A model generated the notes under the pieces. The model saw only the letters and a program-made list of their open reading frames with translations. It did no database searches and was not told the DNA's origin. Both the position numbers and the translations under genes were made by a program. Below, piece by piece: positions 3,000 through 30,962 of a stretch of DNA of 64,000 bases (its first letter is position 1; each line of letters begins with the position of its first letter). Source of the stretch: an uncultured virus (IMG/VR IMGVR_UViG_3300042808_000075). Taxonomy: Duplodnaviria; Heunggongvirae; Uroviricota; Caudoviricetes. The stretch lies in the IMG/VR virus record IMGVR_UViG_3300042808_000075. One strand, written 5' to 3'.

Positions 3000-3106
3000 T
3001 ATTTATTACCGCCCTTTCATTTACCTTATGATTAATTATAGCATTTTAATTTACATTTGTAAAGAAAAAATTAATAATATATAATTAATTAAATATTCTT
3101 ATAATT

Positions 3107-3144
3107 AAAGAAAGGCATCTCTCGGAATCAGACCCCCATCCTCT
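3107..3144 (-). ncRNA. Candidate small RNA, copy 1
   Basis: AGAGGATGGGGGTCTGATTCCGAGAGATGCC plus T-tract behind TTTACA(3174)-17-TATAAT(3151). Confidence 0.55.
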
Positions 3145-3215
3145 GATTTAATTATACTATATATATTTATATTTGTAAATAAAAAACCACCTTTTTATTA
3201 GGTGGTTTTAATGAT

Positions 3216-4247
3216 TTATTTTTCGTAAATAACTGTTCTATTGGAAGTGATTTTAGTAATATCTTCGGCGTAAATTTCTTTAATTGGTTTTTGGCTATTG
3301 CGTTTACCTGTTTTAATACTCCAATTGGTTGCTTTATAGGTGGAAATATAGTTTCCATAAATTAATGCATTGATTAACATATCGATAGGATAAGATACTT
3401 CAATAATTTGTCCTTCGATACTTTCTTCATAACGTCTGTTTTTATTTTTATCTTTCCCCATGATGTAAAGTTTTACTGTTTTGACATAGCTTTTTAATGG
3501 GATAAGTGCTTCATAAAGTTCTTTCTTAATTTGTTCTTTTTCGTCTGGTTTGTGATTGTTGATTTTTTCATTTATCAGATAGTATTTTTTCAAATAACGA
3601 ATCAAACCAAAATACTGTTCTGTTGTTTTGAATTCTTTTTCAAAGTTTTCCATTTCTTTTTGGGTATCAAGAATGTAATTGAGAATTTTTTTGTTTGAAA
3701 TTTCATGGCGAATAATGGGTTTAAATTCAAAAGGTTGGTTTTTTGTATAACATTCTTTCCAGTCGGAGTTTTCAATTTCTTCCTCAGTGATAGGTTGATT
3801 AATGAACGAATCAGGAATATCATTAGCGGTCTTGTATGTTGTTTGTAATTCATCAAAAATTGTTTGCAAACAATTTTTATTAAATTGTTCTTTAATGGTT
3901 TCAAGACCTTTGCCTAGCCAGTGGTAATTGTTTTCTTTGCTATTGACTATGATTTTATATGGAACATCAAAAAGTTTATCAACTTTTTTCACATACACGC
4001 CAGAATATTTTAATTCACTTCTTGATTCTGTGATATCATTGATAAAGTCATTGTCTTTAAGCACAACAGCAGTAGAAAAAATAACAATAAAATCTCCGTG
4101 ATCAACTTTAGAATACAAATCTCCATAGAGCCGGTTTTCGCTAAATGTTGTATCAAAAAGAGCAATGTTATTTTGTGTTTTATCTTTTAAAAATGCGTAG
4201 AATTTTTCGCAATATTCCTCGTTGCTAAGTTTTTTAAAATTGTTCAT
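3216..4247 (-). CDS. Hypothetical protein, paralog of 9551..10579
   Basis: 343 aa; near-identical N- and C-termini to the paralog. Confidence 0.9.
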   Translation of the reverse strand: MNNFKKLSNEEYCEKFYAFLKDKTQNNIALFDTTFSENRLYGDLYSKVDHGDFIVIFSTAVVLKDNDFINDITESRSELKYSGVYVKKVDKLFDVPYKIIVNSKENNYHWLGKGLETIKEQFNKNCLQTIFDELQTTYKTANDIPDSFINQPITEEEIENSDWKECYTKNQPFEFKPIIRHEISNKKILNYILDTQKEMENFEKEFKTTEQYFGLIRYLKKYYLINEKINNHKPDEKEQIKKELYEALIPLKSYVKTVKLYIMGKDKNKNRRYEESIEGQIIEVSYPIDMLINALIYGNYISTYKATNWSIKTGKRNSQKPIKEIYAEDITKITSNRTVIYEK

Positions 4248-4406
4248 TTTATATATCTCCTTTGTTTTTAATTTATAATTTATTATAACATATTTCGTTT
4301 ACAATTGTCAAATATTTTTTATGTAAATAAAAAGTTATTTTTTTATTTACATAAAAGCAACAAAATGATATAATTAATAATAAAGTAATAGAAAGGATAA
4401 ATAACG

Positions 4407-4559
4407 ATGAACAGATATCTAGGTTATTTTGAAGGAAAAGAATATGAAGTATTTGCAAATACTTCACATGAAGCACGACAAGAGTTAGCAAAAAAATTAG
4501 ACATATTTAACATGAGAATATCAGAGCTTATTAGAATTGTAAAACAAAAAAGAAAATAA
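4407..4559 (+). CDS. 50-aa hypothetical protein, paralog of 11161..11334
   Basis: MNRYLGYFEGKEYEVFANTSHEARQ...; own + strand promoter and RBS; absent from ORF track. Confidence 0.75.
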   Translation: MNRYLGYFEGKEYEVFANTSHEARQELAKKLDIFNMRISELIRIVKQKRK

Positions 4560-4580
4560 TAACATTAAAAAAAGAGGTAT

Positions 4581-5090
4581 TTAACCTCTTTTTTTCTTCC
4601 TTTCGTTTTTTATTTTGTTGAGTTCAACAATTTTTTCTTCGTATTGTTTAATTTTTTCTTTTAGATAAATAATTCTTGGATGATTGCTATTGGCTAATGA
4701 TTCGATAGTTGTTGAATTGGTGAAGCTATTCACTATTTGACTAACACCGATAATTGATTCAAGGGCGAATATGTTTTGATTTAATTTTCTTATCATTTTT
4801 CGGCAATTTGATATTTGTTTATTTTCCAGATAGTTTTCTTTGTTTGTTTGTTTGCGTTTGTTTTGTTTTTCATTTTCCTTTCGTTTTTTTTCTTCTTCTT
4901 TTTCATATTGCAATTCAAGTTTTTGCTCGTAAGTTTTTCTTCTTGCATCGAAAAATGCGACTAATTCATCAAGTTCCATTTCGCCGTATAAATCACCATG
5001 TTCGCATGGATGAAATGAATCTGGATGTTGTTGGCAATGATCGCCTTTTAGTGGGCATTCGTCGCAATCATTTATTTCGTTAAATTTCAT
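4581..5090 (-). CDS. Hypothetical protein, N-terminal Cys cluster and coiled coil
   Basis: CDECPLKGDHC..PC motif. Confidence 0.8.
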   Translation of the reverse strand: MKFNEINDCDECPLKGDHCQQHPDSFHPCEHGDLYGEMELDELVAFFDARRKTYEQKLELQYEKEEEKKRKENEKQNKRKQTNKENYLENKQISNCRKMIRKLNQNIFALESIIGVSQIVNSFTNSTTIESLANSNHPRIIYLKEKIKQYEEKIVELNKIKNERKKKRG

Positions 5091-5212
5091 TTTATTTACA
5101 CCGTCTTTTCGTTTTTATTAATTTAATTATACTATATTTATTTATATTCGTAAAGAAAAAAGCCGACTTTTTTATGTCGGCTTTTAATTTTAAATGGTAT
5201 ATTGTTTGTAAA

Positions 5213-5380
5213 TTAATAAAATTCTTGGTTTAAATCATTGTATTCTTGCCATGCAAGCTGTTCTAATTCTTTTAATTTTTCCGTCATTTCTTCTGGCGTG
5301 TGATTGGTTTTTAAAAAATTATGAATATCCCAAGCCAATTGTTTCCAATGTTGCGTTGTGTCCCAAAGCTGTGTTGCCAT
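5213..5380 (-). CDS. 55-aa hypothetical protein
   Basis: MATQLWDTTQHW...; AAGGAG RBS; absent from ORF track. Confidence 0.7.
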   Translation of the reverse strand: MATQLWDTTQHWKQLAWDIHNFLKTNHTPEEMTEKLKELEQLAWQEYNDLNQEFY

Positions 5381-5439
5381 TTTTTGATATCTCCTTTTTA
5401 ATTATGATTATTTGTTTTTGTGATTTATAAGATTGTTGA

Positions 5440-5952
5440 TTAATTAGTGGTTTTATTTTCGTATACTTTAATTAATGTTCTATAGTGCAACCTTTGGATA
5501 TTGTAGCCGCCAGCGGTGATTGTATTAATGGTTACGGTTGCAATGGTTCCTTTTATAGTTCCATTGATTTCACCGTTCATAATTTGAAGATAAGCTTCTT
5601 GAATAGTGCCAGCTTTTTCCTCTATATTTTTCAAAAACAATTTGATTCTTTTTTTTGCTTCTTTTTCAGTGTTTTCTAATACTTTATTTTTTTGGTATTC
5701 ATTGTGAATACTGATAATCAAATGTTTGTCGTTATAGTTTACTTTGTGTTTTCTCCACCATTTTTCTAATTCTTTATATTGTGCCATTTGTTCTTTTGCT
5801 GAATCAATTGTTTTTGGTATTGGCATAATTTCATCAAGTCTTGCCTTTTCTGCTTTGTATGCTTTATGCATATTGTAATACCAATTAATAGTTGCGTTTT
5901 TCCAATTTTCAATAAATTGGTTTAATTGTTCAGTTAGATTATTATTTTGCAT
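5440..5952 (-). CDS. Hypothetical phage protein; C-terminus related to 63367..63957
   Basis: TITAGGYNIQRLHYRTLI motif. Confidence 0.85.
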   Translation of the reverse strand: MQNNNLTEQLNQFIENWKNATINWYYNMHKAYKAEKARLDEIMPIPKTIDSAKEQMAQYKELEKWWRKHKVNYNDKHLIISIHNEYQKNKVLENTEKEAKKRIKLFLKNIEEKAGTIQEAYLQIMNGEINGTIKGTIATVTINTITAGGYNIQRLHYRTLIKVYENKTTN

Positions 5953-6031
5953 TTAATTATCTCCTTTTTATTTTAATTATATCAAATTATTTTATATTTG
6001 TAAATAAATAAACGAGGGAATAATCCCCCGT

Positions 6032-6511
6032 TTATTTTGTTAAATCAGGAACATTTCTTTCAATGTTTTTTTGAATGGCGATATTGATTCTTTCTTGGTT
6101 TTCAGTATTAATAAAAGCAAACCAATGATTTTCAATATCCCACCAGAAATTGCATTTTGTATATGATTTTTTTAAACCATTAATTGCTTCATAAATACCG
6201 ACAACTTCTTTGGTGTTATGATATGGTTTTTTTGAGAAGATTTTTATCCACATAGAAACATCTTCCAAATCATTTTTATCTGCAAAGATAAAAATATATT
6301 TTGGTGTTTCATCTTTTGTTTTTAATTTGATTTTTTTAAATTTGTAAGTTTGATGATTTTTCAAAATATGTTTATATGATTGTGGCAATGCTCCGAATTC
6401 AAATTCAGAACTACCCATATAATCAAATCTAACTAAAGAATCCAAGCCATTGATTTCATTGTCTTGGGTGTTATTAAATTCACCTCTTTGAATTAACCAA
6501 GGTTGTTGCAT
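6032..6511 (-). CDS. Hypothetical phage protein
   Basis: FDYMGSSEFEFGALP motif; cassette promoter and RBS. Confidence 0.85.
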   Translation of the reverse strand: MQQPWLIQRGEFNNTQDNEINGLDSLVRFDYMGSSEFEFGALPQSYKHILKNHQTYKFKKIKLKTKDETPKYIFIFADKNDLEDVSMWIKIFSKKPYHNTKEVVGIYEAINGLKKSYTKCNFWWDIENHWFAFINTENQERINIAIQKNIERNVPDLTK

Positions 6512-6585
6512 GTTTTTCTCTCCTTTTTTATTTTAATTATAACATTTTATATTTGTAAAGGAAAAACAGGGAATTACCCCTGTTT

Positions 6586-6981
6586 TTATTTAATAAGTTT
6601 AATAACAGTTTCGGCAATATCCACATAAGCTTCAAATTTGTTTTTCATTTTATAAAAATCTGTTCTATAAAGTTTGTCAAAAATAGCGTTATTGATTTCT
6701 TGTTTTTTTTGTTCATTGATATCATGACAATAAATGCCAGATTCAACAAACAATTCTTGTTTAAATTCATCCCAAACTTGATTGATTTGTTTTCTGTATT
6801 CATCCATTTGATTGCGGTATTTTTCATTAACAGCAAGTTTTGCTTTTTCTTTTTCTTCGTTGATTTGGATTTGTGTTCCCACAAAATTTTCCTCAATGTT
6901 TTTAATTGTTTCTTTTAATAATTTACTTCTGTCAGGGTGTGCAATTGCATTCATTTTTTCTTCAAAATAAGACAAGTTCAT
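6586..6981 (-). CDS. Hypothetical protein (family with 26201 and 54575)
   Basis: QINQVWDEFKQELF motif. Confidence 0.85.
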   Translation of the reverse strand: MNLSYFEEKMNAIAHPDRSKLLKETIKNIEENFVGTQIQINEEKEKAKLAVNEKYRNQMDEYRKQINQVWDEFKQELFVESGIYCHDINEQKKQEINNAIFDKLYRTDFYKMKNKFEAYVDIAETVIKLIK

Positions 6982-7077
6982 TTTGTTTATCTCCTTTTTA
7001 TTTTAATTATATCATAATTTTTTATTTTTGTAAAGAAAAAACGATATATTTAAAAACATATCGTTTGATTTAGTTTT

Positions 7078-7398
7078 TTAAATTGATAAATACAATCCTG
7101 TTGTTTGTTCAAAAATGTTTTTCAATTGATCACAATATACATTTTTAAATTCAACAACATTTTTTTCTTTCATAGTTGAAGGTGAAACATGATAAATTTT
7201 CATTGTGTAGGTATCATTTTCAGATAAGCAAATTTCCACTTTGTTGAATTTACGACTACCGCAGAATTTAAACCGCACACCAGATTCCAAAGTGAGAAAC
7301 AAGCTGGCACTGATCATGGTTTTTAACTTTCCAAATCCACCCATTTGACTAATGATGGTTTTTGAAATAACTTGCCTTTCTTCCGGTGTATATTGCAT
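7078..7398 (-). CDS. Hypothetical phage protein
   Basis: 106 aa; cassette promoter and RBS. Confidence 0.85.
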   Translation of the reverse strand: MQYTPEERQVISKTIISQMGGFGKLKTMISASLFLTLESGVRFKFCGSRKFNKVEICLSENDTYTMKIYHVSPSTMKEKNVVEFKNVYCDQLKNIFEQTTGLYLSI

Positions 7399-7454
7399 TG
7401 TATTATCTCCTTTTTATTTTAATTATATCATATTTATTTATATTTGTAAATAAA

Positions 7455-7610
7455 TTATTGAATTAGTGATACATTTTTTTCAAATTCATTTCTACTCATG
7501 CAAACTAAATAGCCTTTTTCGTTATAAAAAAACACTTCTTCGCTATGCTTCTCGTCAAGCTGAACAATTTCATCATGAAGTTTATAGAATTCGCCAATAA
7601 TTAATTGCAT
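7455..7610 (-). CDS. 51-aa hypothetical protein
   Basis: MQLIIGEFYKLHDE...; own promoter and RBS; absent from ORF track. Confidence 0.7.
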   Translation of the reverse strand: MQLIIGEFYKLHDEIVQLDEKHSEEVFFYNEKGYLVCMSRNEFEKNVSLIQ

Positions 7611-7683
7611 TTGATTATCTCCTTTTATTTTAATTATATCATATTTATTTATATTTGTAAATAAAAAAGCTAACTTTTAAAAG

Positions 7684-8841
7684 TTAGCTTTCAATAACTT
7701 TAACTCTAGTTAATACTGTTTCTTTTATATTGTTAAATACATGATGTTCTTTTACTGTTCCTTTGATTTCGTATTCACCATTTAATTCTAATGTGTTTTT
7801 TGTGGTGAACCAAGTCAATATGTTTCCTTCTTTAGATTTAAACTTGTATAAATAATTTACCCCGTATGCTGTATCAATTGCCCGTTTAAATATAACAACA
7901 ACTTCGACAGTTATTTTATCATTGATATTTGCAACATGATTTGAATTGTTGTTGTTTGATTTTTCTTTTGTTTGTTGTTTTAAATAAACAGCTATTGCAG
8001 AACAAACAAGGTTTATGTTTTTGTTTTCAATATATTTTGTTTTCAGTATGGTTTGAAGATTATAGATATAGTCATTTTCGTTATTTAACGCAAGAACGGT
8101 TTCAAGAATTTTTTCTGCTACTAAAAAATCTTTCTCGGTTGGTTGATGTTGTTCAAATTCTTTTTTATCACTAGGTAATTTTGTCCAATTTGAATTCATG
8201 TAAATTCTCAATTTATCTGCTGTTGAAGGGATGTATTTATTTTTCATTTGTGATTCTTCTTTTGCTTGTGTAGAACTTTTCCAGCCATATTTTTCAACCA
8301 AATTATTAGTTCTTGCTAATATTTCAATTACATCATAGTAAATTGCACTAGATTCATTGTTAACTATTTCTTTGTTTAAATCTTCAAACATTCCCATATA
8401 CCAAAATAATTTTCTTGTATCAGTAGAACGAGTAAATAACTTCAAACATGTTTTGCCAATTTGTTTAAATTCCTTTGTAATGGTGTTTTGAATAATATAC
8501 GTGTCGTTTCTTGCCCGTTTTGTCTTGCAATGATCACAAGTACATTGCACAGTACGAAAGTATTCTGGTACAGGGTTTCCGCTAATGTTATTGATTACAT
8601 TACCAACATCAAAATGTTGTATGGTGGCAATGAATTGCCAATTAGATAGTTTTGGCAATTCACCGATAATTTCACCTGTACAATATTTGATAATGTTGTT
8701 GTTTTTGTCTTTATCAAATACTTCTTGTTTGGTAATGGTAATTGGTTGCAAATTTAATGAAATAGCTTTCCGGTTAAATTTCTCTATTTTATTTAAGAGA
8801 GTGTTGAAAAACTGTTCTGGTATTTTATATTTATTTATCAT
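7684..8841 (-). CDS. Hypothetical phage protein with CDHC motif and probable C-terminal OB-fold
   Basis: CDHC..R.RN..Y, IGKTCL, TVKEH..TVLTR; start at MINKY after AAGGAGG. Confidence 0.8.
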   Translation of the reverse strand: MINKYKIPEQFFNTLLNKIEKFNRKAISLNLQPITITKQEVFDKDKNNNIIKYCTGEIIGELPKLSNWQFIATIQHFDVGNVINNISGNPVPEYFRTVQCTCDHCKTKRARNDTYIIQNTITKEFKQIGKTCLKLFTRSTDTRKLFWYMGMFEDLNKEIVNNESSAIYYDVIEILARTNNLVEKYGWKSSTQAKEESQMKNKYIPSTADKLRIYMNSNWTKLPSDKKEFEQHQPTEKDFLVAEKILETVLALNNENDYIYNLQTILKTKYIENKNINLVCSAIAVYLKQQTKEKSNNNNSNHVANINDKITVEVVVIFKRAIDTAYGVNYLYKFKSKEGNILTWFTTKNTLELNGEYEIKGTVKEHHVFNNIKETVLTRVKVIES

Positions 8842-8930
8842 GTTATTTACCTCCTTTTTATAATTCAATTATATCAAATAAGTTTATATTTGTAAAGAAA
8901 AAACCACTATTATATAGTGGTTTTCTTTTT

Positions 8931-9455
8931 TTAGCGAAAGATTTTAAAATTTAACTGTTCACGAAACACTGATGTAGTTTTTTTGTTGAATTGGTCAATC
9001 ATATCATAAATTTTCATATATTCTTCTGCCAATTCATCCAGTTTGGAAAGATCATTTTCAAATCGTTGTTTTATTGTAATCAGAGCCTGTTTTTCTCTTT
9101 CAAATTCTTCCAATGCATTTTCTGCATTTAGCCGTTTTTCATCCAAACAAGTGGCTAGAATTTCATTGGAATAATAATTTCTTTGTCTTGACACATTGTG
9201 TAAAAAAATTTCAAAATTCAGTGTTTGTTTTTTGTATTGGTAAAAATTAATATTGCAATGATATTCCTTTGTACAGATTTCTTGAATGGCAGTGAAGAAT
9301 TTTTTATTGATAACTTTTTTGTCAAATTTCAGTGTTACTTCTTTGATTTTATCGATAATTAACATAATTGCGTTGATAGCTTTGATTTCTTGTGAAAGGT
9401 TTTCTCTAGTCATCTCTTTAAGCGTAAGTGTATATTCCATTTGGGATTTATTCAT
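8931..9455 (-). CDS. Hypothetical protein
   Basis: 174 aa; cassette promoter and RBS. Confidence 0.85.
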   Translation of the reverse strand: MNKSQMEYTLTLKEMTRENLSQEIKAINAIMLIIDKIKEVTLKFDKKVINKKFFTAIQEICTKEYHCNINFYQYKKQTLNFEIFLHNVSRQRNYYSNEILATCLDEKRLNAENALEEFEREKQALITIKQRFENDLSKLDELAEEYMKIYDMIDQFNKKTTSVFREQLNFKIFR

Positions 9456-9550
9456 TGTTCTTATCTCCTTTTTATTTTATAATTTATTATAACATATATA
9501 TTTAAAAATGTAAAGAAAAAACCACCTTTTTATTAGGTGGTTTTAATGAT

Positions 9551-11010: not shown

Positions 11011-11160
11011 TTTGTTTATCTCCTTTGTTTTTATTTTATGATTTATTATAGCATTTTAATTTAATCTTGTAAAGAAAAAATCACTTTTTATTTTTCTCTT
11101 TACATATAAGTAACAAAATGATATAATTAATAATAGAGTAAGAGAAAAGGAGAAATAATA

Positions 11161-11334
11161 ATGAACGGATATATTGGCTTTCACAAAGGAAAACAATATG
11201 AGATATTTGCAAATACCTCATATGAAGCACAACAGAAATTAGCCAAACAATTGAAAGTAAAAAAGGCATATGAAATTACAGTTGTATTAGCTGAAAAAGA
11301 AGGGAAAAGCGTAACACATACAGCAACATTTTAA
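11161..11334 (+). CDS. 57-aa small phage protein
   Basis: MNGYIGFHKGKQYEIFANTSYEAQQKLAKQ...; own + strand promoter, AAGGAG RBS, terminator. Confidence 0.85.
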   Translation: MNGYIGFHKGKQYEIFANTSYEAQQKLAKQLKVKKAYEITVVLAEKEGKSVTHTATF

Positions 11335-11388
11335 AAGAGGTATTTAACCTCTTTTTTTGTGTTTAATATTCAGAATATTCTTATAAAT

Positions 11389-11426
11389 AAAAAACGGCAT
11401 CCCTCCGAATCAGACCCCTATCATCT
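11389..11426 (-). ncRNA. Candidate small RNA, copy 2
   Basis: AGATGATAGGGGTCTGATTCGGAGGGATGCCG plus T-tract behind TTTACT-17-TATAAT. Confidence 0.55.
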
Positions 11427-11481
11427 ACTTTTATTATACTATATATAAAATAAAAAGTAAAGGAAAATGTGGTATTTCCCT

Positions 11482-12012: not shown

Positions 12013-12056
12013 CTTCTTATCTCCCTTTATGTTATATTATATTTACCAAAATAAGC

Positions 12057-16882: not shown

Positions 16883-17000
16883 TTATCTACTTCCTTTTTT
16901 GTTTTATTTTTACAATTCATTAGTAAAATAAAAACGGGGAAATAACCCCCGTTTTTAGTATCATTACATCTCATAATTTTTTCATATTTTGATTGATTTG

Positions 17001-17042
17001 CTACAGGAAAGGAATTTTCCCGAAGCGCAACAGTTTGCGCAT
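17001..17042 (-). CDS. 13-aa peptide MRKLLRFGKIPFL
   Basis: AAGGAG RBS, ATG..TAG. Confidence 0.7.
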   Translation of the reverse strand: MRKLLRFGKIPFL

Positions 17043-17120
17043 ATGTTTCATTCTCCTTTTTTGCATGATTGAAAATTTATTATCTCATATATCTCTATTT
17101 TTCATATTTAAATTGATTCG

Positions 17121-17162
17121 TCAGATAAATGGAATTTTACCAAGGCGTAACCGTTTGCGCAT
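17121..17162 (-). CDS. 13-aa peptide MRKRLRLGKIPFI
   Basis: AAGGAGG RBS, ATG..TGA; synonymous changes relative to the other copies. Confidence 0.7.
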   Translation of the reverse strand: MRKRLRLGKIPFI

Positions 17163-17237
17163 GTTTTGTCCTCCTTCTTTACTTGATTAAATTTTTCATC
17201 TCATATATCTCTATTTTTTCATATTTTGATTAATTCG

Positions 17238-17279
17238 CTACAGGAAAGGAATTTTCCCGAAGCGCAACAGTTTGCGCAT
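17238..17279 (-). CDS. 13-aa peptide MRKLLRFGKIPFL
   Basis: AAGGAG RBS, ATG..TAG. Confidence 0.7.
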   Translation of the reverse strand: MRKLLRFGKIPFL

Positions 17280-17379
17280 ATGTTTTCTCCTTTTCAATGA
17301 ATTTAATATTTTTTCTTGCAATTTGTTATTAAAGCAATTTTATTTTCGCTGTAAAAATCTCCTTTAACCCTTTACCTGA

Positions 17380-17412
17380 TTATTTTATGATGTAGCACAT
17401 GGTTTTGTGCAT
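17380..17412 (-). CDS. 10-aa peptide MHKTMCYIIK
   Basis: AGAAAGGTGGTGAT RBS just after the promoter at 17440-17468. Confidence 0.5.
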   Translation of the reverse strand: MHKTMCYIIK

Positions 17413-17482
17413 TTGCAATCACCACCTTTCTATATTTTAATTATATCATTTTTATTTAATTTTGTAAAGTTTTTTTTTATTT

Positions 17483-22883: not shown

Positions 22884-23053
22884 TTGTTATTACCATCCTT
22901 TTTATTTTTATTATACCATATTGCTTTACAAATGTCAACATTTTTATTTAAATTTAAAACATTGTTATAATTAAAGAAGCGCATTAATCAGATTTATATC
23001 CTTTATAATTATTATAACAAATACATATATATTTGTAAACAAAAACAACCTAA

Positions 23054-23515: not shown

Positions 23516-23614
23516 TGTATTTATCTCCTTTTTTATATTATGATTTATTATAACATATATATTTAAAATTGTAAAGAAAAAACCACTAATTAATTAGTGG
23601 TTTTGATAATTGTT

Positions 23615-23908
23615 TTATTTGTCCTTATTGAAAATCTGTTTATAGGATTCATATGCTTCATTAACACAACAGTGTGGTATAGCACTTGATGGTGTTGGCA
23701 AACATCCATCCCACCAACGCATAACTGGCAGATTAGAAGTCATGTTAGCTGAACGTGTTATTGTGCCATTAGGACTCCTTGACCAACCATCAATATGTTT
23801 TGCATTTATTCCACCATTTACACCTGATCTGCGTAGGTTTTGAATTTCATCTTTATGCTTTTCTGCAATCTTTTGCAATTCGATTGTTAGTTTTTCCAAT
23901 CTGGTCAT
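23615..23908 (-). CDS. Hypothetical protein
   Basis: 97 aa; cassette. Confidence 0.75.
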   Translation of the reverse strand: MTRLEKLTIELQKIAEKHKDEIQNLRRSGVNGGINAKHIDGWSRSPNGTITRSANMTSNLPVMRWWDGCLPTPSSAIPHCCVNEAYESYKQIFNKDK

Positions 23909-24014
23909 TTTTATTATCTCCTTTATTTTTATTTTATAATTAATTATAACATTTTAATTTAAATTTGTAAAGAAAAAATAACAATATAAATATTGTTAGA
24001 ATATTCTTATAATT

Positions 24015-24052
24015 AAAGAAAGGCATCTCTCGGAATCAGACCCCTATCCTCT
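24015..24052 (-). ncRNA. Candidate small RNA, copy 3
   Basis: AGAGGATAGGGGTCTGATTCCGAGAGATGCC behind TTTACA(24082)-17-TATAAT(24059). Confidence 0.55.
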
Positions 24053-24143
24053 GATTTAATTATACTATATGTATTGATGTTTGTAAAGAAAAATACACCA
24101 TGAAAGGTGTATTTTTTATAAATCTTTCAAAAATTAATAAAAT

Positions 24144-24225
24144 TGGTACAGGTGGAGGGATTCGAACCCTCAATCAATGAAGTGGATTTGTTTGTCAAAT
24201 TTTGTTCATGAAAGTCAACACCCAT
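24144..24225 (-). tRNA. Degenerate tRNA / tRNA-like element with intact T-arm, acceptor 3' strand and CCA
   Basis: GAGGGTTCGAATCCCTC CACCTGT A CCA; ATGGGTG at 24219-24225 can pair with CACCTGT. Confidence 0.5.
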
Positions 24226-24362
24226 TTCCAATAAAAACATTTTCTTTGTAGATAAAACTAACAAATAAACTCACTCCTTTACAACGAAAGATACAACTCT
24301 GTTTGTATTATCTCCTTTTTATTTTAATTATAACACATTGCTTTATAATTGTAAATAAAAAA

Positions 24363-24674: not shown

Positions 24675-24692
24675 TTTACTAACACATCCTTT

Positions 24693-24971: not shown

Positions 24972-25061
24972 TTTTTATCTCCTTTTTATTTTAATTATAT
25001 CATATTAATTTTCATTTGTAAAGAAAAAAGCTTACTTAATAAAAAGCAAACTTTAAACAAT

Positions 25062-25889
25062 TCAAATATATCTTTCTTCTTCGATTTTTTTTATAAAAAA
25101 ACTTTCTCCACAATCGATAAACATTTGTTTGTTTACATTTAAATATTTTTGCGCATCACTTTCCTTTTTAAATGTCTTTATTAAATTAGACTGATGACTA
25201 TAAGAATATATAAATCCATATTTTGTTTTTCTAAAGAAAACATTTCCATGTGAATTGCATAAGATAAAATATTCTTTTACCAATTGTTTTTCTCTTTTTG
25301 TTTTTTTGCGAAATGGCCTTTTTTGAATTTTATTTTGTTTAAATTCAATATCTAATTCCGCATACACATTATAACATTTATTATCCAACATCAAAAAAAG
25401 CATATATTCTTGATAGTTTTTAATGAATTTTGCAAAAGCCAAACTTGTTTTTGGTACACAATAATGTTCTCTCGTAAATTCCAAATTAGCATGATCAAAA
25501 CTTATATTGATATCATTGTATTGACTATATTCTTCTACTGTTAACGCTTTTTTTATACCAGAGTTCACCCATTTAACAAATTCTCCTTCTTCAAATGGTT
25601 TGTTTTTGGCTTTAAATGTATTACCGTTTTGTTCTGCCAGATTTAATAATTCTTTCTTGGAGAAAAAAATTGATTGGTTATACCAATATCTTCCCCAAGA
25701 TTTTTCACGAACATAACGGTTATTAATATTTAACCTTCTAATATTGCTTGCACCTGTTAACATTAATGGTATATACAAAAATTCATCTTCAATTTTTTCA
25801 TCGATAATAACATTTGCTTCATGCAAAATCTTTGTTTCAATTTTTATAAATCCTTTATTGTAAAAAATAGTATATCCCATTTTTCCCAT
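25062..25889 (-). CDS. Hypothetical protein, paralog of 34284..35099
   Basis: Shared YTIFY.K.FIKIETKIL and RKTKYG. Confidence 0.85.
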   Translation of the reverse strand: MGKMGYTIFYNKGFIKIETKILHEANVIIDEKIEDEFLYIPLMLTGASNIRRLNINNRYVREKSWGRYWYNQSIFFSKKELLNLAEQNGNTFKAKNKPFEEGEFVKWVNSGIKKALTVEEYSQYNDINISFDHANLEFTREHYCVPKTSLAFAKFIKNYQEYMLFLMLDNKCYNVYAELDIEFKQNKIQKRPFRKKTKREKQLVKEYFILCNSHGNVFFRKTKYGFIYSYSHQSNLIKTFKKESDAQKYLNVNKQMFIDCGESFFIKKIEEERYI

Positions 25890-25910
25890 TCCTTTTTAAA
25901 TTAATTATCC

Positions 25911-26099
25911 TTAGAATCCAATAGATTCCAAAAATTCATCTGCTACATCATGGGAATAGAAAATTCCTTCATAAACAGGCTCATCTGTTTCTTCCACAAA
26001 TACTTCAATAATTTCAACAAATGCAAATCCACGATCTTGAAAATCACGATTGATAATAAGTGTACCTTCATAATTTTTCAATTGTTCTTCTGTCCACAT
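25911..26099 (-). CDS. Small acidic protein
   Basis: 62 aa; cassette. Confidence 0.75.
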   Translation of the reverse strand: MWTEEQLKNYEGTLIINRDFQDRGFAFVEIIEVFVEETDEPVYEGIFYSHDVADEFLESIGF

Positions 26100-26200
26100 T
26101 TTGTTTATACCGCCTTTCTTTTATTTGTTTTAATTATAACATATTTCTTTACTGTTGTAAAGAAAAAACTATCAATGTATTGATAGTTTTAAAATTTAAA

Positions 26201-26536
26201 TTATTTTGTCTGTAATTCTAAAGTGAATTTTGCTAAATGATGAAATATTTTTTCCATATCTTTGAATTTTGTTCTTGATTGAGAATGCTTTTTTAATAAT
26301 TCATTTGTTTTTGAATCAAAATTATATTGTAGAAATAGTTCTTGAAAAAATTCTTCATAAATCTGATTTATTTGTTGTTGATAATGTTCCAATTCGATTT
26401 GATATTGTTTTTCCACATCATTATCAAAAATAGGTGATAATGATTGTGCAAAAAGTTTTTGTTTAATTGTTGAATAATTCGGATATTGAATTAAATTAAA
26501 TTTTTCATTATATTTTTGACTTATTTTTTCTTCCAT
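26201..26536 (-). CDS. Hypothetical protein (family with 6586 and 54575)
   Basis: QINQIYEEFFQELF. Confidence 0.75.
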   Translation of the reverse strand: MEEKISQKYNEKFNLIQYPNYSTIKQKLFAQSLSPIFDNDVEKQYQIELEHYQQQINQIYEEFFQELFLQYNFDSKTNELLKKHSQSRTKFKDMEKIFHHLAKFTLELQTK

Positions 26537-26656
26537 TTACTCAACCTCTTTTCATCAATTTTACTTATTAAGTATAACATATATTCCCATATATGTAAAG
26601 TAAAATTTATCAAAAACTAAAAAACACCATGATTTTTATCATGGTGTTTTTATTAT

Positions 26657-26668
26657 TTAATAGCGCAA
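26657..26668 (-). CDS. Minigene TTG-CGC-TAT-TAA (or MIPLRY from 26677)
   Basis: Leader AGAAAGGATATGATTCCA, nearly identical to the 612 element. Confidence 0.5.
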   Translation of the reverse strand: MRY

Positions 26669-26699
26669 TGGAATCATATCCTTTCTTTAATTATTTATG

Positions 26700-26720
26700 T
26701 TATAATGTTACCTTCCGCAA
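26700..26720 (-). CDS. Minigene MRKVTL (TTG start)
   Basis: Leader AAAGGATTGATGCCA; promoter at ~26764-26792. Confidence 0.45.
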   Translation of the reverse strand: MRKVTL

Positions 26721-26806
26721 TGGCATCAATCCTTTACTGTTTAATGTATCTCTTTATGTTTTTATTATACTATACTTTTTTATATTTGTAAACATTTTTT
26801 ACAATA

Positions 26807-28777
26807 TCATTCGCTTTTTTCAATGACAATTAAACAGGTACTATCAGGAAGAACAACAGAATTATATTCACAATCAAAGAATTCTATTTTTTGATTCAAA
26901 TGTAGGTTATAACCATCTTGCAAATAATGTTGGTTAGTTATGATTTTAGCTGTTTGGCCTAATATAGTTTGGATAAAATTTTCATATTGAGCAGGTGTGA
27001 AATATCCAAATTGTTCCTGTACTTCATGAGTATATGATTGTTCGCCCCATGTATAGGTATAAAGAAATTCCATAGCATCATTAATATCCATTTTAACTTC
27101 ATTTAAGCCAGTGATTTCAAATTGAATATCTCTACCTTTAAAATCTTTTACATATTGTTTTAAAAAATCCAATCCTTCATCAGATTTAAATCTAATGATT
27201 CTTTTCTCTTTGCTATCGGTCATAATGCCATCACGGATAATAATTCTACCATTGTTGTTTAAAGCGTCAAATGCACTTTTTAATACATTTGCAATTGTAT
27301 CATGATTGAATTTTTTATTATCTAATTCTATATAAGAAAACAATTCATGGATAATAGAACAAAAGATAATAGTATCAACATTATCAATATATTTCTTTAA
27401 TTCAAACGCATTTCCTTGGATTACATTCCAAGTATGATTTTCTAATTCTTTTTTCTTATTGAGTTTTTCAATAACATTAGTAGAAATATCGATACCATAG
27501 ATATTTTTATTAGTTAGTGAAGATTCTAATTCATCCAATAAAACGCCACCGCCGGGGCCGATATCAACAATGGTATCACCAACAACATAATCAACAATTA
27601 CTTTTTTGTAATCTTTTGATTGATTCATGGTTTGCAAATAACTTTCTTCATTATGAAACCGATCAAATTGGTCTTTACGCAAATCAAACAAATCAAACAA
27701 AACAATGATAGCTTTATCATATTCAAGGCCAGATTTTTCAGCTTCAACACAAAACTCTATTAATTTTTCTCCTGCATTGGAAAATTCAAAATCAAATGAC
27801 AAGAATTTTCCTTCTTTAATGATTTTATGTTTAACATGAATATTATTGCTAGGGTTTTGTAAGTATTTTTCAATGATTCTTTTTTTGTAAATGTTGATTT
27901 TTTTAGTATGGTTATAATCATAATACAATTGTTTCATTAATGGTTCCAATGAAACATTTAATTCATCATTAATATCATTGGATATTAGCTTTAACACTTG
28001 AATAAATTGTGTGAAGTTAAAATCATATAATGCTGATTCTATATACCAGAAATTAACATTGTTAAATTTTTCTTCCAAAAAAGTCAAATCATTTGTTTTT
28101 GACAATTCGCTATTGAAATTTTCACCATTTTTAATAGATTTCTTTCTAAGATTTGACAGTCTTGTAATAAAGTCTTTTTTGGGTACACATTTATTTTCAA
28201 ATATGTATGCAATAATTTGCTGAAATTCGTTTTTAGAATTTTCCCATAGAACAGGAGAAACAGCAGATACAATACAATAATTTAAATAATACAATATTTT
28301 ACTTATATCACCATATTGCAATAAAACTGAATGAGTGTTAAGATTAGATTCTTCACCGCGAATGTATTGACCAATTAATCCATGAGTGGCAATTAAATCT
28401 TTACATAATTCGTCTGTTCTATGTTCAGAATAAATATTAGCCGATGCAGTATTATGGATATTTAAATTATATCCTTTTTTCTCCCATTGTTTACGTTGGT
28501 ATTGGTTGCCGCATTTTGCAACCTCAGACCAAATCAAAACTTCTTCAATAACATCAATAGTGTTTTGATCTAAAACATTAGCAATATTATTTAATACTTC
28601 TAATGTTTTTTTAACATAATTTAAAACACAATGATTATTTAATTCATTGAAAGAACTAATTCTTTCAATGTTATAATTGGTTTGTTCGGTTAAATATAAA
28701 AACTGTAACCATTTATTATTTTTCAATACAGATAAATCACCAGATTTAACCTGACTAATTAGCTTTAAAGATTGCAT
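26807..28777 (-). CDS. Large class I SAM-dependent methyltransferase with N-terminal helical/HD-like region
   Basis: IVDIGPGGG, GIDIS, SIIHELFSY and GRIIIRDG motifs. Confidence 0.85.
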   Translation of the reverse strand: MQSLKLISQVKSGDLSVLKNNKWLQFLYLTEQTNYNIERISSFNELNNHCVLNYVKKTLEVLNNIANVLDQNTIDVIEEVLIWSEVAKCGNQYQRKQWEKKGYNLNIHNTASANIYSEHRTDELCKDLIATHGLIGQYIRGEESNLNTHSVLLQYGDISKILYYLNYCIVSAVSPVLWENSKNEFQQIIAYIFENKCVPKKDFITRLSNLRKKSIKNGENFNSELSKTNDLTFLEEKFNNVNFWYIESALYDFNFTQFIQVLKLISNDINDELNVSLEPLMKQLYYDYNHTKKINIYKKRIIEKYLQNPSNNIHVKHKIIKEGKFLSFDFEFSNAGEKLIEFCVEAEKSGLEYDKAIIVLFDLFDLRKDQFDRFHNEESYLQTMNQSKDYKKVIVDYVVGDTIVDIGPGGGVLLDELESSLTNKNIYGIDISTNVIEKLNKKKELENHTWNVIQGNAFELKKYIDNVDTIIFCSIIHELFSYIELDNKKFNHDTIANVLKSAFDALNNNGRIIIRDGIMTDSKEKRIIRFKSDEGLDFLKQYVKDFKGRDIQFEITGLNEVKMDINDAMEFLYTYTWGEQSYTHEVQEQFGYFTPAQYENFIQTILGQTAKIITNQHYLQDGYNLHLNQKIEFFDCEYNSVVLPDSTCLIVIEKSE

Positions 28778-28867
28778 GTTTTAACCTCCTTGTTTATTAA
28801 TTTAATTATATCATGTATATTAAAATTTGTAAATAAAAAAGCACTCTTTTATGAGTGCTTTTAAGTA

Positions 28868-29191
28868 TCAAATAATTTTTGCATTTTGTTCTGATTCTAC
28901 AATCAAAACATATTCTTTTCCACCATAATTGATTTTATGTTCACCAATAAAATTTGTTGTTTGAATGTTTTGCAAAAGATTGTGATTGTATTTATCCATA
29001 AGAGATAATTCTACCCATGAATCATTCTTTCCTGCAAAAACTTCCAAAACAATTGTTTTCCCATTTTCAAATTCTGAAAAATTAACAAAAATGATATTGC
29101 CGCTTTCAAGATTGTCAGGATGTTTTTTAACTTTCAATGCAGTGTTAATGGATGATACAACAATTTCTTCAATAGCAATTGTGGTTTTCAT
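28868..29191 (-). CDS. Hypothetical protein, paralog of 37230..37544
   Basis: Shared SGNI.F...F..GK.I.LEV, SWVE, F.GEH. Confidence 0.8.
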   Translation of the reverse strand: MKTTIAIEEIVVSSINTALKVKKHPDNLESGNIIFVNFSEFENGKTIVLEVFAGKNDSWVELSLMDKYNHNLLQNIQTTNFIGEHKINYGGKEYVLIVESEQNAKII

Positions 29192-29205
29192 TTTTCATAT
29201 CTCCT

Positions 29206-29604
29206 TTAAATGATATTTTCTTTAATGGTATTTACAAAATCTTTAAAATCATTTTTAGAATATGGAGTATGCTTCTTTTTAAATCCGTTTTGTTTAAAAT
29301 TACCAGTTAAACTATCTTTAAACACTTTACCGAAAGGACTGATACACAAAACATTTTTACCTAATACTAAGGTAGCTAATCCAGAATCTTTAGTGATAAT
29401 CAAATCATCTTTTTGAGCAAAATTGTAAATTTTGATATCTGATTCTTGTTTTTTACTATCCACCATAATATGGTTTTTTGAATTTGCGAATTCATGACTT
29501 GTATCCGCAACAGTGTAAACGGGAACATTCAGTTTTTGGCCTAAATCTAAACAATACTGTAATACAATTTTAGGACAGGAATCTGCATCAATGATAATTC
29601 GCAT
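29206..29604 (-). CDS. YaiI/YqxD (DUF188, PIN-like) family protein
   Basis: IIIDADSCP, SDIKI, DLIITKDSGLA. Confidence 0.85.
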   Translation of the reverse strand: MRIIIDADSCPKIVLQYCLDLGQKLNVPVYTVADTSHEFANSKNHIMVDSKKQESDIKIYNFAQKDDLIITKDSGLATLVLGKNVLCISPFGKVFKDSLTGNFKQNGFKKKHTPYSKNDFKDFVNTIKENII

Positions 29605-29749
29605 TTTTGTGTACCGCCTTTCTTTTTTATATTTTAATTATAATATATTTTTTTTGTTTTGTAAAGAAAAAATGATAAATTTATAAAATACTTTTGAAAT
29701 TTATTACAAAAAAACTAGGGTAAAAAATGCCCTAGTTTTTGAAGTATAA

Positions 29750-30733
29750 TTATTTTTCAATATCATCCTGTAATAGATTTTTAATTTCATTAATATACTC
29801 GTCTAATTTTTCGTTGATCATTTTTAACTGTTCATTTGCAAATTTTTCAGCATCTTCGAAATTATTGAATGTTTGTTTGATATCAATGTTATCACCGTCA
29901 ATGAAATGATATTTATTATATACTTTTACAAACACTTCCCATTTATCGCATTTTTCTAATGCACTTTCGCATATAGCAACTGAACAAAAATAACAATTTG
30001 AAAAAAATGTGTTAATAATTTTTTTTGCATATGGGTTTTGTTTGATGAACTCATTTTTAGTCATTTCTGTTTTTTCCCAATAAGGTGCAAATACACCATT
30101 TTTAATACTGTTTAATTTACCCTTAAAGTTATGATATTCAATTTTTGTTTTTTTCACTTCTTCTTCAAGATTAGATAATTTTTCACATAATTGGCGTTCT
30201 TTAATTTCCATATTTTCAATAATACTATTTAATTTTTTCCCTTCATTTTTTAATAAGTCTTCAATTTCTTCAATATGATCATTTAGTTTTTCATTAATAA
30301 AATTTATTTGTTCATTTGCGAATTTTTTTGCTTCTTCATGATTATGAAACATTTTCTTTTTTTCAATTGAACAATCACCAAGAAAATGCCCTTTGTTGTA
30401 TGTGTCAGATGCCCATGTCCACACGCACCATTTGTGACTTTTATTTAATGGAGTTTCACCAATCATGACTGAACAATTGTAAAAATTTGAAAATAATGTG
30501 TTAGTTATTTGTTTTGCATATGGATAATGTTTGTTAGGCTTTGTTTCGGGAGTAAATGTTCTTTCTTCCCAATATGGTACAAAAATACCGCTTTTGAATT
30601 CTTGTAATAGATCACAAAAATTAAAATATTCTTCTTCTGTATGTTCCTTTTCTATTTCAAGTTTGCCAAGTTTTTCATATAATTGTTGTTCTGTTTTTTT
30701 CATATCTTCAATAGCTTTTTCTAATTTGTTCAT
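29750..30733 (-). CDS. Hypothetical protein with internal two-fold repeat
   Basis: PYWE...PYAK.I.NT.FSN...CSV.I occurs twice. Confidence 0.85.
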   Translation of the reverse strand: MNKLEKAIEDMKKTEQQLYEKLGKLEIEKEHTEEEYFNFCDLLQEFKSGIFVPYWEERTFTPETKPNKHYPYAKQITNTLFSNFYNCSVMIGETPLNKSHKWCVWTWASDTYNKGHFLGDCSIEKKKMFHNHEEAKKFANEQINFINEKLNDHIEEIEDLLKNEGKKLNSIIENMEIKERQLCEKLSNLEEEVKKTKIEYHNFKGKLNSIKNGVFAPYWEKTEMTKNEFIKQNPYAKKIINTFFSNCYFCSVAICESALEKCDKWEVFVKVYNKYHFIDGDNIDIKQTFNNFEDAEKFANEQLKMINEKLDEYINEIKNLLQDDIEK

Positions 30734-30856
30734 TTTGTTATCTCCTTTTTTATTTATATTATACCATATATATTAATGTTTTGTAAATCAGTTTTTATCA
30801 ATTCATTTTAATAAAATTTACTTGACAAATGTAAAACAATATAGTATAATAAAGAT

Positions 30857-30894
30857 AGAGGATGGGGGTCTGATTCCGAGGGATGCCTTTTTTT
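30857..30894 (+). ncRNA. Candidate small RNA, copy 4 (inverted)
   Basis: TTGACA(30822)-17-TATAAT(30845), then AGAGGATGGGGGTCTGATTCCGAGGGATGCCTTTTTTT. Confidence 0.6.
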
Positions 30895-30962
30895 ATTTAT
30901 AAGAATATTCTGCCATTTTGTTTTTACTTTACAAATGTATATTGCATGTGTTATAATCATAA

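What the first reader, a model, noticed from the sequence alone, without database searches (positions are those of the whole stretch)
3090..30915. Multicopy promoter-driven ~35-nt G-rich small RNA candidate
Seen: AGA(G/T)GAT(G/A)GGGGTCTGATTC(C/G)GAG(A/G)GATGCC, followed by a T-rich tract and TATAAGAATATT, occurs at 3114-3144 (-), 11396-11426 (-), 24022-24052 (-) and 30857-30887 (+). A decayed copy lies at ~22965-23005. Each intact copy begins ~7 nt after its own -35/17/TATAGTATAAT promoter and lacks a properly spaced SD-ORF; possible ORFs (MGV, MPFF..) vary in start or length. It is GC-rich against an AT-rich background and matches no RNA family I recognise. Inference: an abundant early sRNA acting as a protein decoy (antitoxin or CRISPR-repeat mimic) or as an antisense regulator.
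Basis: partly seen in the sequence, partly recalled or inferred. Interest (0 to 1): 0.78.

Follow-up and report, generated by a model that had tools for sequence, protein, structure and literature searches.

The report
Multicopy promoter-coupled phage RNA element
A novel AT-rich phage carries four near-identical copies of a 55-base G-rich block, each starting exactly at the predicted transcription start of its own strong promoter; it is most likely a small early RNA whose function is still unknown.

Summary
The 31-nt motif occurs exactly four times at the stated coordinates, against 0 expected by chance. A fifth, degenerate copy lies at 22957-23004.

Each copy starts at the predicted +1 of a near-consensus sigma-70-type promoter. 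The conserved block is longer than reported, running from +1 to +55. It is 88-92% identical between copies, while both flanks fall to background at 37%.

The window is the early region of a novel large phage, with about 70 terminator-promoter cassettes. The motif sits where a cassette normally holds a gene.

It matches no Rfam family. No CRISPR array carries it as a repeat, it is not tandem, and no phage mRNA stands out as an antisense target.

My best reading, at about 0.4, is a stand-alone non-coding early RNA. It would have a 5'-terminal G-rich hairpin, a conserved AU-rich tail and a variable terminator. The rivals are a cis-acting leader, a tiny ORF (MPFF(N/I)YKNI) and a DNA site. There are no expression data and no covariation, so the function remains inferred.

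The parts
3151..3179 (-). P1 promoter of copy 1 (TTTACA-17-TATAAT, ATATAGTATAAT type)
3090..3144 (-). Copy 1 conserved block +1..+55 (31-nt motif 3114-3144 plus tail)
3066..3089 (-). Copy 1 AU-only hairpin and U-run just before P2
   Evidence: (fold)
3035..3063 (-). P2 promoter serving the ArdC-like anti-restriction gene 2142-2999
11433..11461 (-). P1 promoter of copy 2 (TTTACT -35)
11372..11426 (-). Copy 2 conserved block +1..+55 (most divergent copy, subtype B)
11333..11357 (.). Hairpin terminator shared with the convergent + strand gene 11161-11334. It closes the copy 2 unit at about +95, with no minus-strand ORF in between
   Evidence: whole 94-nt RNA z -2.7
24059..24087 (-). P1 promoter of copy 3
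23998..24052 (-). Copy 3 conserved block +1..+55
23973..23997 (-). Copy 3 AU hairpin (8 bp) and U-run before P2 (23943-23971), which serves gene 23615-23908
30822..30850 (+). P1 promoter of copy 4 (TTGACA-17-TATAAT, 12/12). It is divergent from the minus-strand promoter 30758-30787
30857..30912 (+). Copy 4 conserved block, the only + strand copy. It is followed by U-rich sequence without a hairpin, then a + strand promoter at 30928-30957 and about 420 nt of non-coding sequence
22957..23004 (-). Degenerate fifth copy. The G-rich hairpin is lost. The ATG and tail are kept (ATG CGC TTC TTT AAT TAT AAC AAT GTT). It lies between promoters 23011-23039 and 22910-22938
   Evidence: E 0.017

Best explanation
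Each copy is a self-contained micro-gene in the early region of a large, novel, AT-rich phage.

What the sequence shows:
- A near-consensus host-type promoter (P1) is followed after 7 nt by a sharply bounded 55-nt conserved block.
- The block occupies the slot that a protein gene occupies in the other roughly 60 terminator-promoter cassettes of the window.

What I infer:
- Host RNA polymerase starts at the A of AGAGGAT.
- The RNA folds into a 5'-terminal, G.U-rich, imperfect hairpin (+2..+38, with a 9-nt loop GAUUC(C/G)GAG).
- An unpaired AU-rich tail follows (+39..+55).
- The RNA ends either at the hairpin's own U-run (about +40) or at the next hairpin or U-run (+70..+95).
- Four strong promoters give a high early dose, which suits titration of an RNA-binding protein or of ribosomes. 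The two purine boxes GAGGAUG and GAG(A/G)GAUG are the candidate binding sites.
- The 5'-terminal hairpin would also protect the RNA from 5'-end-dependent decay.

The partner and the biological effect are unknown.
For: There are four exact copies where 0 are expected.

The conserved block has sharp boundaries. Identity is 0.92 for +1..+31 and 0.88 for +32..+55. The -35/spacer region (0.66) is no more alike than 57 unrelated promoters are to each other (0.74). Sequence beyond +55 (0.37) is near background (0.31). This points to constraint or gene conversion on the transcribed block, not to recent whole-cassette duplication.

The discriminator bases -6..-1 differ between copies, so conservation begins at the predicted +1.

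Orientation and distance to P1 are kept in the one inverted copy.

What lies downstream is inconsistent: an ArdC-like gene, a 97-aa ORF, a terminator with a convergent gene, and 420 nt of non-coding sequence.

Copies 1-3 fold as a 5' hairpin, about 16 unpaired nt, then a 3' hairpin with a U-run. The consensus hairpin has 12 pairs. Five cells change on one side and keep the pair.

The phage has other orphan promoter-to-terminator units without ORFs, so short non-coding transcripts are part of its repertoire.
Against: The hairpin is no more stable than shuffled sequence (z -0.7, -0.07, -0.8 and +0.9 for the four copies).

No pair shows a compensatory double change, and 2 cells, both in copy 2, break the pair.

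All copies come from one contig, so there is no independent phylogenetic support.

Copy 4 lacks a 3' hairpin.

The simple terminator scan does not call the motif hairpin.

No target or partner was identified. The titration mechanism is inference only.
Confidence: 0.4

Rival explanations
1. It is a cis-acting 5' leader rather than a free RNA. The block would be the first 55 nt of longer P1 transcripts. It would act as a 5' stabiliser (terminal hairpin and SD-like purine tract), or as a promoter-proximal attenuator or antitermination loading site that decides whether RNA polymerase reads through the many downstream terminators.
For: The hairpin starts at +2 and is followed by a U-rich run (U6-U7 in copies 2 and 4). 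Three of the five units (copies 1 and 3 and the degenerate copy) sit in tandem with a second promoter and a gene. Nearly every gene here ends in a terminator, so a read-through device would have a use. The AU-only hairpins after copies 1 and 3 are weak.
Against: Copy 2 is followed by a terminator and a convergent gene, and copy 4 by non-coding sequence. The downstream genes are unrelated. No N-, Q- or LoaP-like protein was seen among the 104 proteins scanned against Pfam. The motif hairpin is not called as a terminator.
Confidence: 0.22
2. It contains a tiny translated ORF. The ATG at +27 would open MPFF(N/I)YKNI, and the G-rich hairpin would be its translational control element.
For: The ATG and the next eight codons are kept in all four copies. 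The conserved block ends at codon 9-10, and copy 1 stops there with TAA. Of three differences inside the nine codons, two are synonymous (CCT/CCG, TTC/TTT) and one is not (AAT/ATT). This comes from reading the alignment. The degenerate copy has lost the hairpin but keeps ATG CGC TTC TTT AAT TAT AAC AAT GTT in frame. The phage has other very small SD-led ORFs.
Against: There is no properly spaced Shine-Dalgarno. The purine tract abuts the ATG, and the 5' AGAGGA lies 20 nt away. ORF length varies by direct reading of the frames: 9 codons in copy 1, 18 in copy 2, 28 in copy 3 and 64 in copy 4, where one search lists ORF 30883-31077. The extensions run through promoter sequence. Two synonymous changes out of three is not significant. 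The ATG lies inside the predicted stem.
Confidence: 0.12
3. It is a DNA-level site. A phage or host protein would bind the duplex just downstream of P1, as an operator, a sigma-dependent pause or loading site, or a recombination site.
For: There is a direct repeat GAGGATG ... GAG(A/G)GATG about 21-22 bp apart, and a 10-bp palindrome AGAATATTCT in the tail of copies 2-4 (alignment). Conservation also includes the -10 region ATATAGTATAAT.
Against: The conserved block starts at +1 and always keeps the same polarity relative to P1. The G-over-C strand asymmetry and the G.U pairs make sense only in RNA. The only predicted DNA-binding protein in the window is one HTH_17 protein at 35194-35460, which has no link to the sites.
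Confidence: 0.1
4. It is a neutral passenger. The block would be a remnant of a deleted gene or a selfish mini-cassette spread by recombination between the repeated terminator-promoter cassettes, with no function of its own.
For: The surrounding architecture resembles PeSL cassettes, which mediate shuffling in T4-like phages (PMC2839356, passages read; PMC4122927, abstract read). One copy has decayed.
Against: The flanks have diverged to background while the block stays 87-97% identical. No parent gene or other similar sequence exists in the window.
Confidence: 0.08
5. It is an RNA anti-CRISPR (a Racr, or solitary repeat unit): a promoter-driven mimic of the host's CRISPR repeat that soaks up Cas proteins.
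For: The motif is 31 nt long, can form a hairpin and lies immediately downstream of a promoter, as described for solitary repeat units (PMC10651486, passages read). Copy 1 sits directly upstream of an ArdC-like anti-restriction gene.
Against: No CRISPR array or multi-hit locus has this repeat. One genome per GTDB species gave 6 single chance hits. The first 120 metagenome loci gave none. The window has no array. The motif lacks the usual repeat termini. These searches needed exact matches to 16-19 specified bases, so a diverged host repeat would be missed.
Confidence: 0.05

Closest known systems
Viral solitary repeat units / RNA anti-CRISPRs (Racr; PMC10651486)
   Same: Both are a short (about 30 nt) structured element immediately downstream of its own strong promoter, non-coding, and in a phage near an anti-defence gene.
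   Different: The defining similarity to a CRISPR repeat was not found. There are four dispersed copies plus a conserved 24-nt tail that a repeat mimic does not need.
PeSL cassettes of T4-like phages (PMC2839356, PMC4122927)
   Same: The genome context matches: dozens of stem-loop terminators joined to strong sigma-70-type early promoters, flanking small orphan genes.
   Different: The motif is the cargo between two such cassettes, not the cassette itself. This phage is not T4-like by the proteins tested.
5' mRNA stabilisers of Gram-positive bacteria and their phages (SD-like polypurine 'STAB-SD' elements and 5'-terminal stem-loops; recalled, no paper read here)
   Same: Both have a purine-rich SD-like tract at the very 5' end with no start codon at working distance, and a hairpin that begins within 2 nt of the 5' end.
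   Different: Two of the four units have no gene to stabilise. Copy 2 has lost the GGA of the 5' tract. The effect on decay is untested.
Promoter-proximal short transcripts and antitermination sites of lambdoid phages (PR' 6S RNA with Q, nut, HK022 put; recalled)
   Same: Both have a dedicated promoter followed at once by a structured RNA and a U-rich stop, in a genome full of terminators.
   Different: No Q, N or other antiterminator homologue was detected. A boxA-like core is seen only in copies 1 and 3, and by eye only. There is no sequence similarity.

Membership tests
Racr / solitary CRISPR repeat unit | Sequence and structure similarity to a CRISPR repeat of the host or of related arrays | tested here: not met
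   The exact-pattern scan of one genome per GTDB species gave 6 single, unrelated hits and no arrays. The searches are exact-match only, so this is a weak negative.
Racr / solitary CRISPR repeat unit | Promoter within a short distance upstream; not associated with cas genes | tested here: met
   P1 ends 7 nt upstream in 4 of 4 copies. No Cas domain appeared among the 104 proteins scanned against Pfam.
Type III toxin-antitoxin antitoxin RNA (ToxI-like) | Tandem array of about 36-nt repeats next to a ToxN/AbiQ-type endoribonuclease gene | tested here: not met
   The copies are 7-12 kb apart. There is no tandem family containing the motif and no ToxN-like Pfam hit.
Any Rfam family (riboswitch, ribozyme, known sRNA, tRNA/tmRNA) | Covariance-model match | tested here: not met
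   There were 0 matches at gathering score in 64 kb. No match at E<=10 overlaps copies 3 or 4. ARAGORN finds nothing. Similarity to the nearby tRNA-like element and to a real tmRNA is at chance level.
Intrinsic terminator / attenuator | G+C-rich uninterrupted stem directly followed by a U-run | tested here: inconclusive
   The stem has 12 pairs with three bulges and 4-5 G.U pairs. The U-run is U7 in copy 4 and U6 in copy 2, but UUUCUUU in copies 1 and 3. The consensus scan does not call it.
PeSL-type regulatory cassette | Stem-loop terminator plus sigma-70-like early promoter plus SD, repeated between small orphan genes | tested here: met
   This is met for the context: 79 promoter matches against 7.2 expected, and a hairpin with a T-run upstream of most promoters. 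It is not met for the motif, which lies between two such cassettes.
5' stabiliser (terminal stem-loop / STAB-SD) | Increases the half-life of the downstream RNA by blocking 5'-end-dependent decay | not testable with these tools
   Only the sequence prerequisites are seen: the hairpin starts at +2 and there is an SD-like AGAGGA at +1..+6.
nut/put-type processive antitermination site | RNA element that modifies the transcribing polymerase; a partner N/Q/Nus recognition box | not tested
   No model is available and no N/Q homologue was seen. The resemblance to boxA is by eye only and is absent from copies 2 and 4.

The most novel reading that the evidence does not exclude
The block is a dosage-amplified early decoy RNA. 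It would belong to a wider set of promoter-coupled micro-units in this phage, together with the GAAAGGAT(A/G)TGATTCCATTGCG element, which unrelated huge phages carry in the leaders of their own CRISPR arrays. Four strong promoters would flood the cell with an RNA that titrates a host RNA-binding defence or translation factor. That would be a new class of RNA-based host takeover or anti-defence.
Probability: 0.15. Interest if true: 0.75.

Novelty: new variant of a known kind. Interest (0 to 1): 0.45.

Why it matters
Phage small RNAs are few and mostly known from model phages. RNA decoys against host immunity were recognised only recently (PMC10651486).

Here a promoter-coupled, sharply bounded block is kept in four copies while its flanks have diverged to background. 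That makes it a clean candidate for a dose-dependent early RNA in an otherwise unknown large phage. The same phage also carries an RNA-repair gene set: a CCA-adding enzyme, two RNA ligases and two YaiI-family (DUF188) proteins.

If the RNA is real and acts in trans, it would add a new family to phage RNA-based takeover or counter-defence. If it acts in cis, it would show how a phage with a terminator after every gene tunes read-through.

In either case the cassette is small enough (about 120 bp) to test directly.

Tried and rejected
tRNA or tmRNA fragment. A tRNA-like element lies 90 nt upstream of copy 3, and by eye the motif resembled its 5' half. Local alignment scores 12, and 477 of 1208 background windows score as high. 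Alignment to a real tmRNA (L165) gives only chance-level scores of 15-18. Rejected.

Relation to the three tandem 13-aa ORF units at 16.9-17.3 kb. No alignment above noise. Rejected.

Relation to the second repeated element (GAAAGGAT(A/G)TGATTCCATTGCG, 'f2'). The degenerate copy looks intermediate by eye, but the f2 profile retrieves neither the motif nor the degenerate copy at E<=20. Unproven, kept only as a lead.

Alternative genetic code (TGA read through in ATG GGG GTC TGA). TGA ends 19 of 116 heuristic ORFs, and the ATG is ATA in 2 of 4 copies. Rejected.

ORF on the opposite strand. The frame is open across the motif in all four copies, but it has no start codon or SD and the changes are mostly non-synonymous (read). 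Rejected.

Antisense promoter in the tail. The opposite-strand TATAAT has no -35 and is TATAAA in copies 2 and 4. Rejected.

Searches for relatives:
- Three protein-based scans of IMG/VR found nothing close. The best was 46% identity, for ArdC only.
- tblastn against GenBank phages gave at most 42% identity.
- blastn of the cassette found no match.
- Five motif-pattern scans of IMG/VR gave 0, 0, 4, and 7 chance hits.
- The rest of the contig and sequencing runs could not be reached.
- Earlier findings of this scan held nothing.

Full report
**1. The observation**

None of 100 dinucleotide-preserving shuffles gave a match.

Aligning the four loci and the proposed decayed copy shows the same layout in each: a promoter, 7 nt, the G-rich motif, a T-rich run, then (T/A)TTATAAGAATATT.

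A profile built from the four copies recovers them at E 7e-19 to 7e-21. It finds one further place, 22957-22985(-), at E 0.017, matching only profile positions 28-56 (the tail). Nothing else in 64 kb scores below E 0.3. So there are four intact copies and one degenerate copy.

The window is 20-31% GC in 2-kb steps. The 25-nt windows over the copies at 3114, 24022 and 30857 reach 56-64% GC, the highest among the 17 long intergenic gaps examined.

**2. The context**

The window is the reverse strand of part of an 85-kb metagenome contig; loci L079 and L115 are 100% identical to it. The remaining 21 kb could not be read.

The pattern TT(G/T)ACA-N17-TATAAT, with one mismatch allowed, occurs 79 times against 7.2 expected. 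Nearly all sites are on the minus strand. Most are preceded by a hairpin with a T-run and followed by a strong SD and a small ORF.

Few proteins have known families.
- PHROGs matched 4 of 30 proteins.
- Pfam domains include ArdC-N plus zincin (2142-2999), a CCA-adding enzyme (32432-33649), T4-type RNA ligases 1 and 2 (40798-41985, 45239-46180), a methyltransferase, a radical-SAM protein, two DUF188/YaiI proteins and one HTH protein.

The nearest cultured phages are remote: 42% identity to Bacillus phages PBS1/AR9 for one 748-aa protein, and 30-35% for two others. TGA serves as a stop codon in 19 of 116 heuristic ORFs.

This is the early or accessory region of a novel large phage of a host with sigma-70-type promoters and strong SDs. 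The repeated terminator-promoter cassettes recall the PeSL elements of T4-like phages (PMC2839356, passages read; PMC4122927, abstract read).

**3. Anatomy of the unit**

All four P1 promoters share ATATAGTATAAT and lack the TG extension of most promoters here.

I took +1 as the seventh base after TATAAT and measured pairwise identity between the four copies by region.

| Region | Identity between the four copies | Same region in 57 other promoters |
|---|---|---|
| -60..-36 | 0.37 | not compared here |
| -35..-14 | 0.66 | 0.74 |
| -13..-1 | 0.79 | not compared here |
| +1..+31 | 0.92 | 0.42 |
| +32..+55 | 0.88 | 0.31 |
| +56..+85 | 0.37 | 0.31 |

The conserved block therefore runs from the predicted +1 to +55, with sharp edges. 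The flanks have diverged to the background level of unrelated cassettes. This argues for constraint, or for conversion confined to the block, rather than for recent duplication. It also places the 5' edge of conservation at the predicted RNA 5' end.

There are two subtypes. Copies 1 and 3 have GAGAGATGCCTTTCTTTAATT. Copies 2 and 4 have GAGGGATGCC(T/G)TTTTTTATTT...ATTCTG.

What follows the block differs between copies.
- Copies 1 and 3: an AU-only hairpin with U5-6, then a second promoter and a gene (ArdC-like in copy 1, a 97-aa ORF in copy 3).
- Copy 2: a hairpin terminator shared with a convergent + strand 57-aa gene, and no minus-strand ORF.
- Copy 4, the only + strand copy, at a divergent promoter region: U-rich sequence, a second + strand promoter and about 420 nt of AT-rich non-coding sequence ending in a terminator.

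**4. Structure**

Each copy folds into a hairpin from +2 to +38. For copies 1 and 3 this is GAGGA.GGG.GUCU [9-nt loop] AGAU.CCU.UCUUU, at -13 kcal/mol. The z-scores against shuffles are only -0.7, -0.07, -0.8 and +0.9.

The consensus fold has 12 pairs. No pair shows a two-sided compensatory change. Five cells change on one side and keep the pair (G-C to G-U twice, U-A to U-G twice, G-U to A-U once). Two cells, both in copy 2, are broken.

Four copies from one genome cannot prove a structure.

Folding the putative full-length RNAs gives a 5' hairpin, about 16 unpaired nt and a 3' hairpin with a U-run for copies 1-3. Whole-RNA z-scores are -1.05, -2.7 and -1.9. Copy 4 does not fold this way.

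**5. Tests of named ideas**

- Rfam: no match at gathering score, and none at E<=10 over copies 3 and 4.
- CRISPR-repeat mimic: a 19-specified-base pattern scanned over one genome per GTDB species gave 6 single hits in unrelated sequence contexts (5 of the 6 loci at 57-68% GC), with 23-28 mismatches in the 53 nt compared. All were single hits and only two extended, and both of those are the window itself. The window has no array.
- IMG/VR: zero hits for two long patterns, and 4 plus 7 chance hits for two looser ones.
- Type III antitoxin: the copies are not tandem, and no ToxN-like protein was found.
- Antisense to phage genes: the best duplex with 104 initiation regions is -23.4 kcal/mol, and 7 of 30 shuffled queries do as well. 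No long complementary site exists in the window.
- Several similarities that I noticed by eye (to the neighbouring tRNA-like element, to tmRNA, and to the tandem mini-ORF units) are at chance level.

**6. Interpretation**

I favour a stand-alone small non-coding RNA gene (confidence 0.4). The main reasons are these:
- the conserved block begins at +1;
- it keeps its polarity and distance to P1 even when inverted;
- it has no common downstream gene;
- it sits where a gene sits in the cassette architecture;
- it is followed by hairpin and U-run structures in three of four copies.

Four strong promoters argue for a dose-dependent action. The two purine boxes (GAGGAUG, GAG(A/G)GAUG), the 9-nt loop and the conserved unpaired tail are the candidate contact surfaces. 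The partner and the effect are inference only.

A cis-acting leader, as stabiliser, attenuator or antitermination site, is the main rival (0.22). It fits the hairpin at +2, the U-run and the tandem promoters. It does not fit copies 2 and 4.

A tiny ORF from the ATG at +27 (MPFF(N/I)YKNI) deserves attention (0.12). The degenerate copy has lost the hairpin but keeps this frame, and two of the three differences within it are synonymous. Against it, there is no usable SD and the ORF length varies from 9 to 64 codons.

The remaining readings are less likely: a DNA site (0.10), a neutral cassette remnant (0.08) and a Racr (0.05).

**7. Novelty and verdict**

The feature is real and sharply defined. 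It has no homologue in any collection I could search. It belongs to the broad known kind of phage promoter-proximal small RNAs or leaders, but to no known family.

Without expression data or relatives its function cannot be settled. I score interest at 0.45.

**8. Side finding**

This finding may prove more informative than the motif itself. A second short element, GAAAGGAT(A/G)TGATTCCATTGCG, occurs four times in the window, with a weak fifth copy at E 0.71. Each copy lies inside an orphan promoter-to-terminator unit.

The same 20-22 nt occur in four IMG/VR records of 47-48% GC. In one 346-kb record, 6 of the 7 matches with up to 3 mismatches lie inside a conserved leader of about 190 nt. The element sits about 95 nt upstream of a CRISPR array with 34-nt repeats, 2-6 repeats per array. 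Two window proteins have no homologue in that record.

In all these copies an SD-like tract is followed after 6-10 nt by UUG, one to six codons and a stop.

I could not show that this element is related to the G-rich motif.

Noticed in passing
window 610-634(-), 26660-26682(-), 26710-26733(-), 47225-47240(-), weak 17414-17435(-); loci L169, L173-L176, L178: A second repeated element, GAAAGGAT(A/G)TGATTCCATTGCG, lies in orphan promoter-to-terminator units. It carries an SD-like tract followed by a UUG-codon-stop mini-ORF. The same element sits in the conserved leader, about 95 nt upstream, of six CRISPR arrays in an unrelated 346-kb IMG/VR phage record and in three related records.
   Followed up: partly
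window 24144-24232(-): A tRNA-like element has a 7-bp acceptor stem with G3:U70, a perfect T-arm (GAGGG-TTCGAAT-CCCTC) and ACCA, but no D arm and no 7-nt anticodon loop. It gives a sub-threshold tmRNA hit (19 bits, E 1.6e-4), and ARAGORN finds nothing. It overlaps a 45-aa SD-led ORF (24127-24264), so a coding reading is also possible.
   Followed up: partly
window 16925-17470(-): One promoter drives a 10-aa SD-led ORF and then three tandem units of about 117 nt. Each unit has a well-spaced SD and a 13-aa ORF, MRK(L/R)LR(F/L)GKIPF(L/I). The unit is closed by a terminator.
   Followed up: partly
window 279-500: Three tandem repeats of 66-83 nt contain TTTTTCTAGGGTGTTTTT and C-rich tracts (CCCCCCCTCCCC, CCCCCACCCCC on the minus strand). 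They lie close to the contig end and could be a terminal, packaging or origin region.
   Followed up: no
window 30928-31453(+): A + strand promoter is followed by about 420 nt with no ORF. The stretch has two short GC hairpins, a very AT-rich core and a bidirectional terminator, and sits between two DUF188/YaiI genes. It could be an origin or a longer non-coding RNA.
   Followed up: no
window 29206-46180: An RNA-repair and RNA-processing gene set is present: a CCA-adding enzyme, T4-type RNA ligases 1 and 2, and two DUF188/YaiI proteins. This suggests the host attacks tRNAs or other RNAs.
   Followed up: no
window 4346-4559(+) and 11099-11334(+): Two paralogous small + strand genes (50 and 57 aa) have near-identical promoters of their own. 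They are the only clear + strand genes among about 100 minus-strand genes. One of them converges on motif copy 2.
   Followed up: no
locus L169 1646-1680: In the 346-kb IMG/VR phage record, one CRISPR spacer reads like the 3' end of a tRNA (T-arm, acceptor strand, CCA).
   Followed up: no
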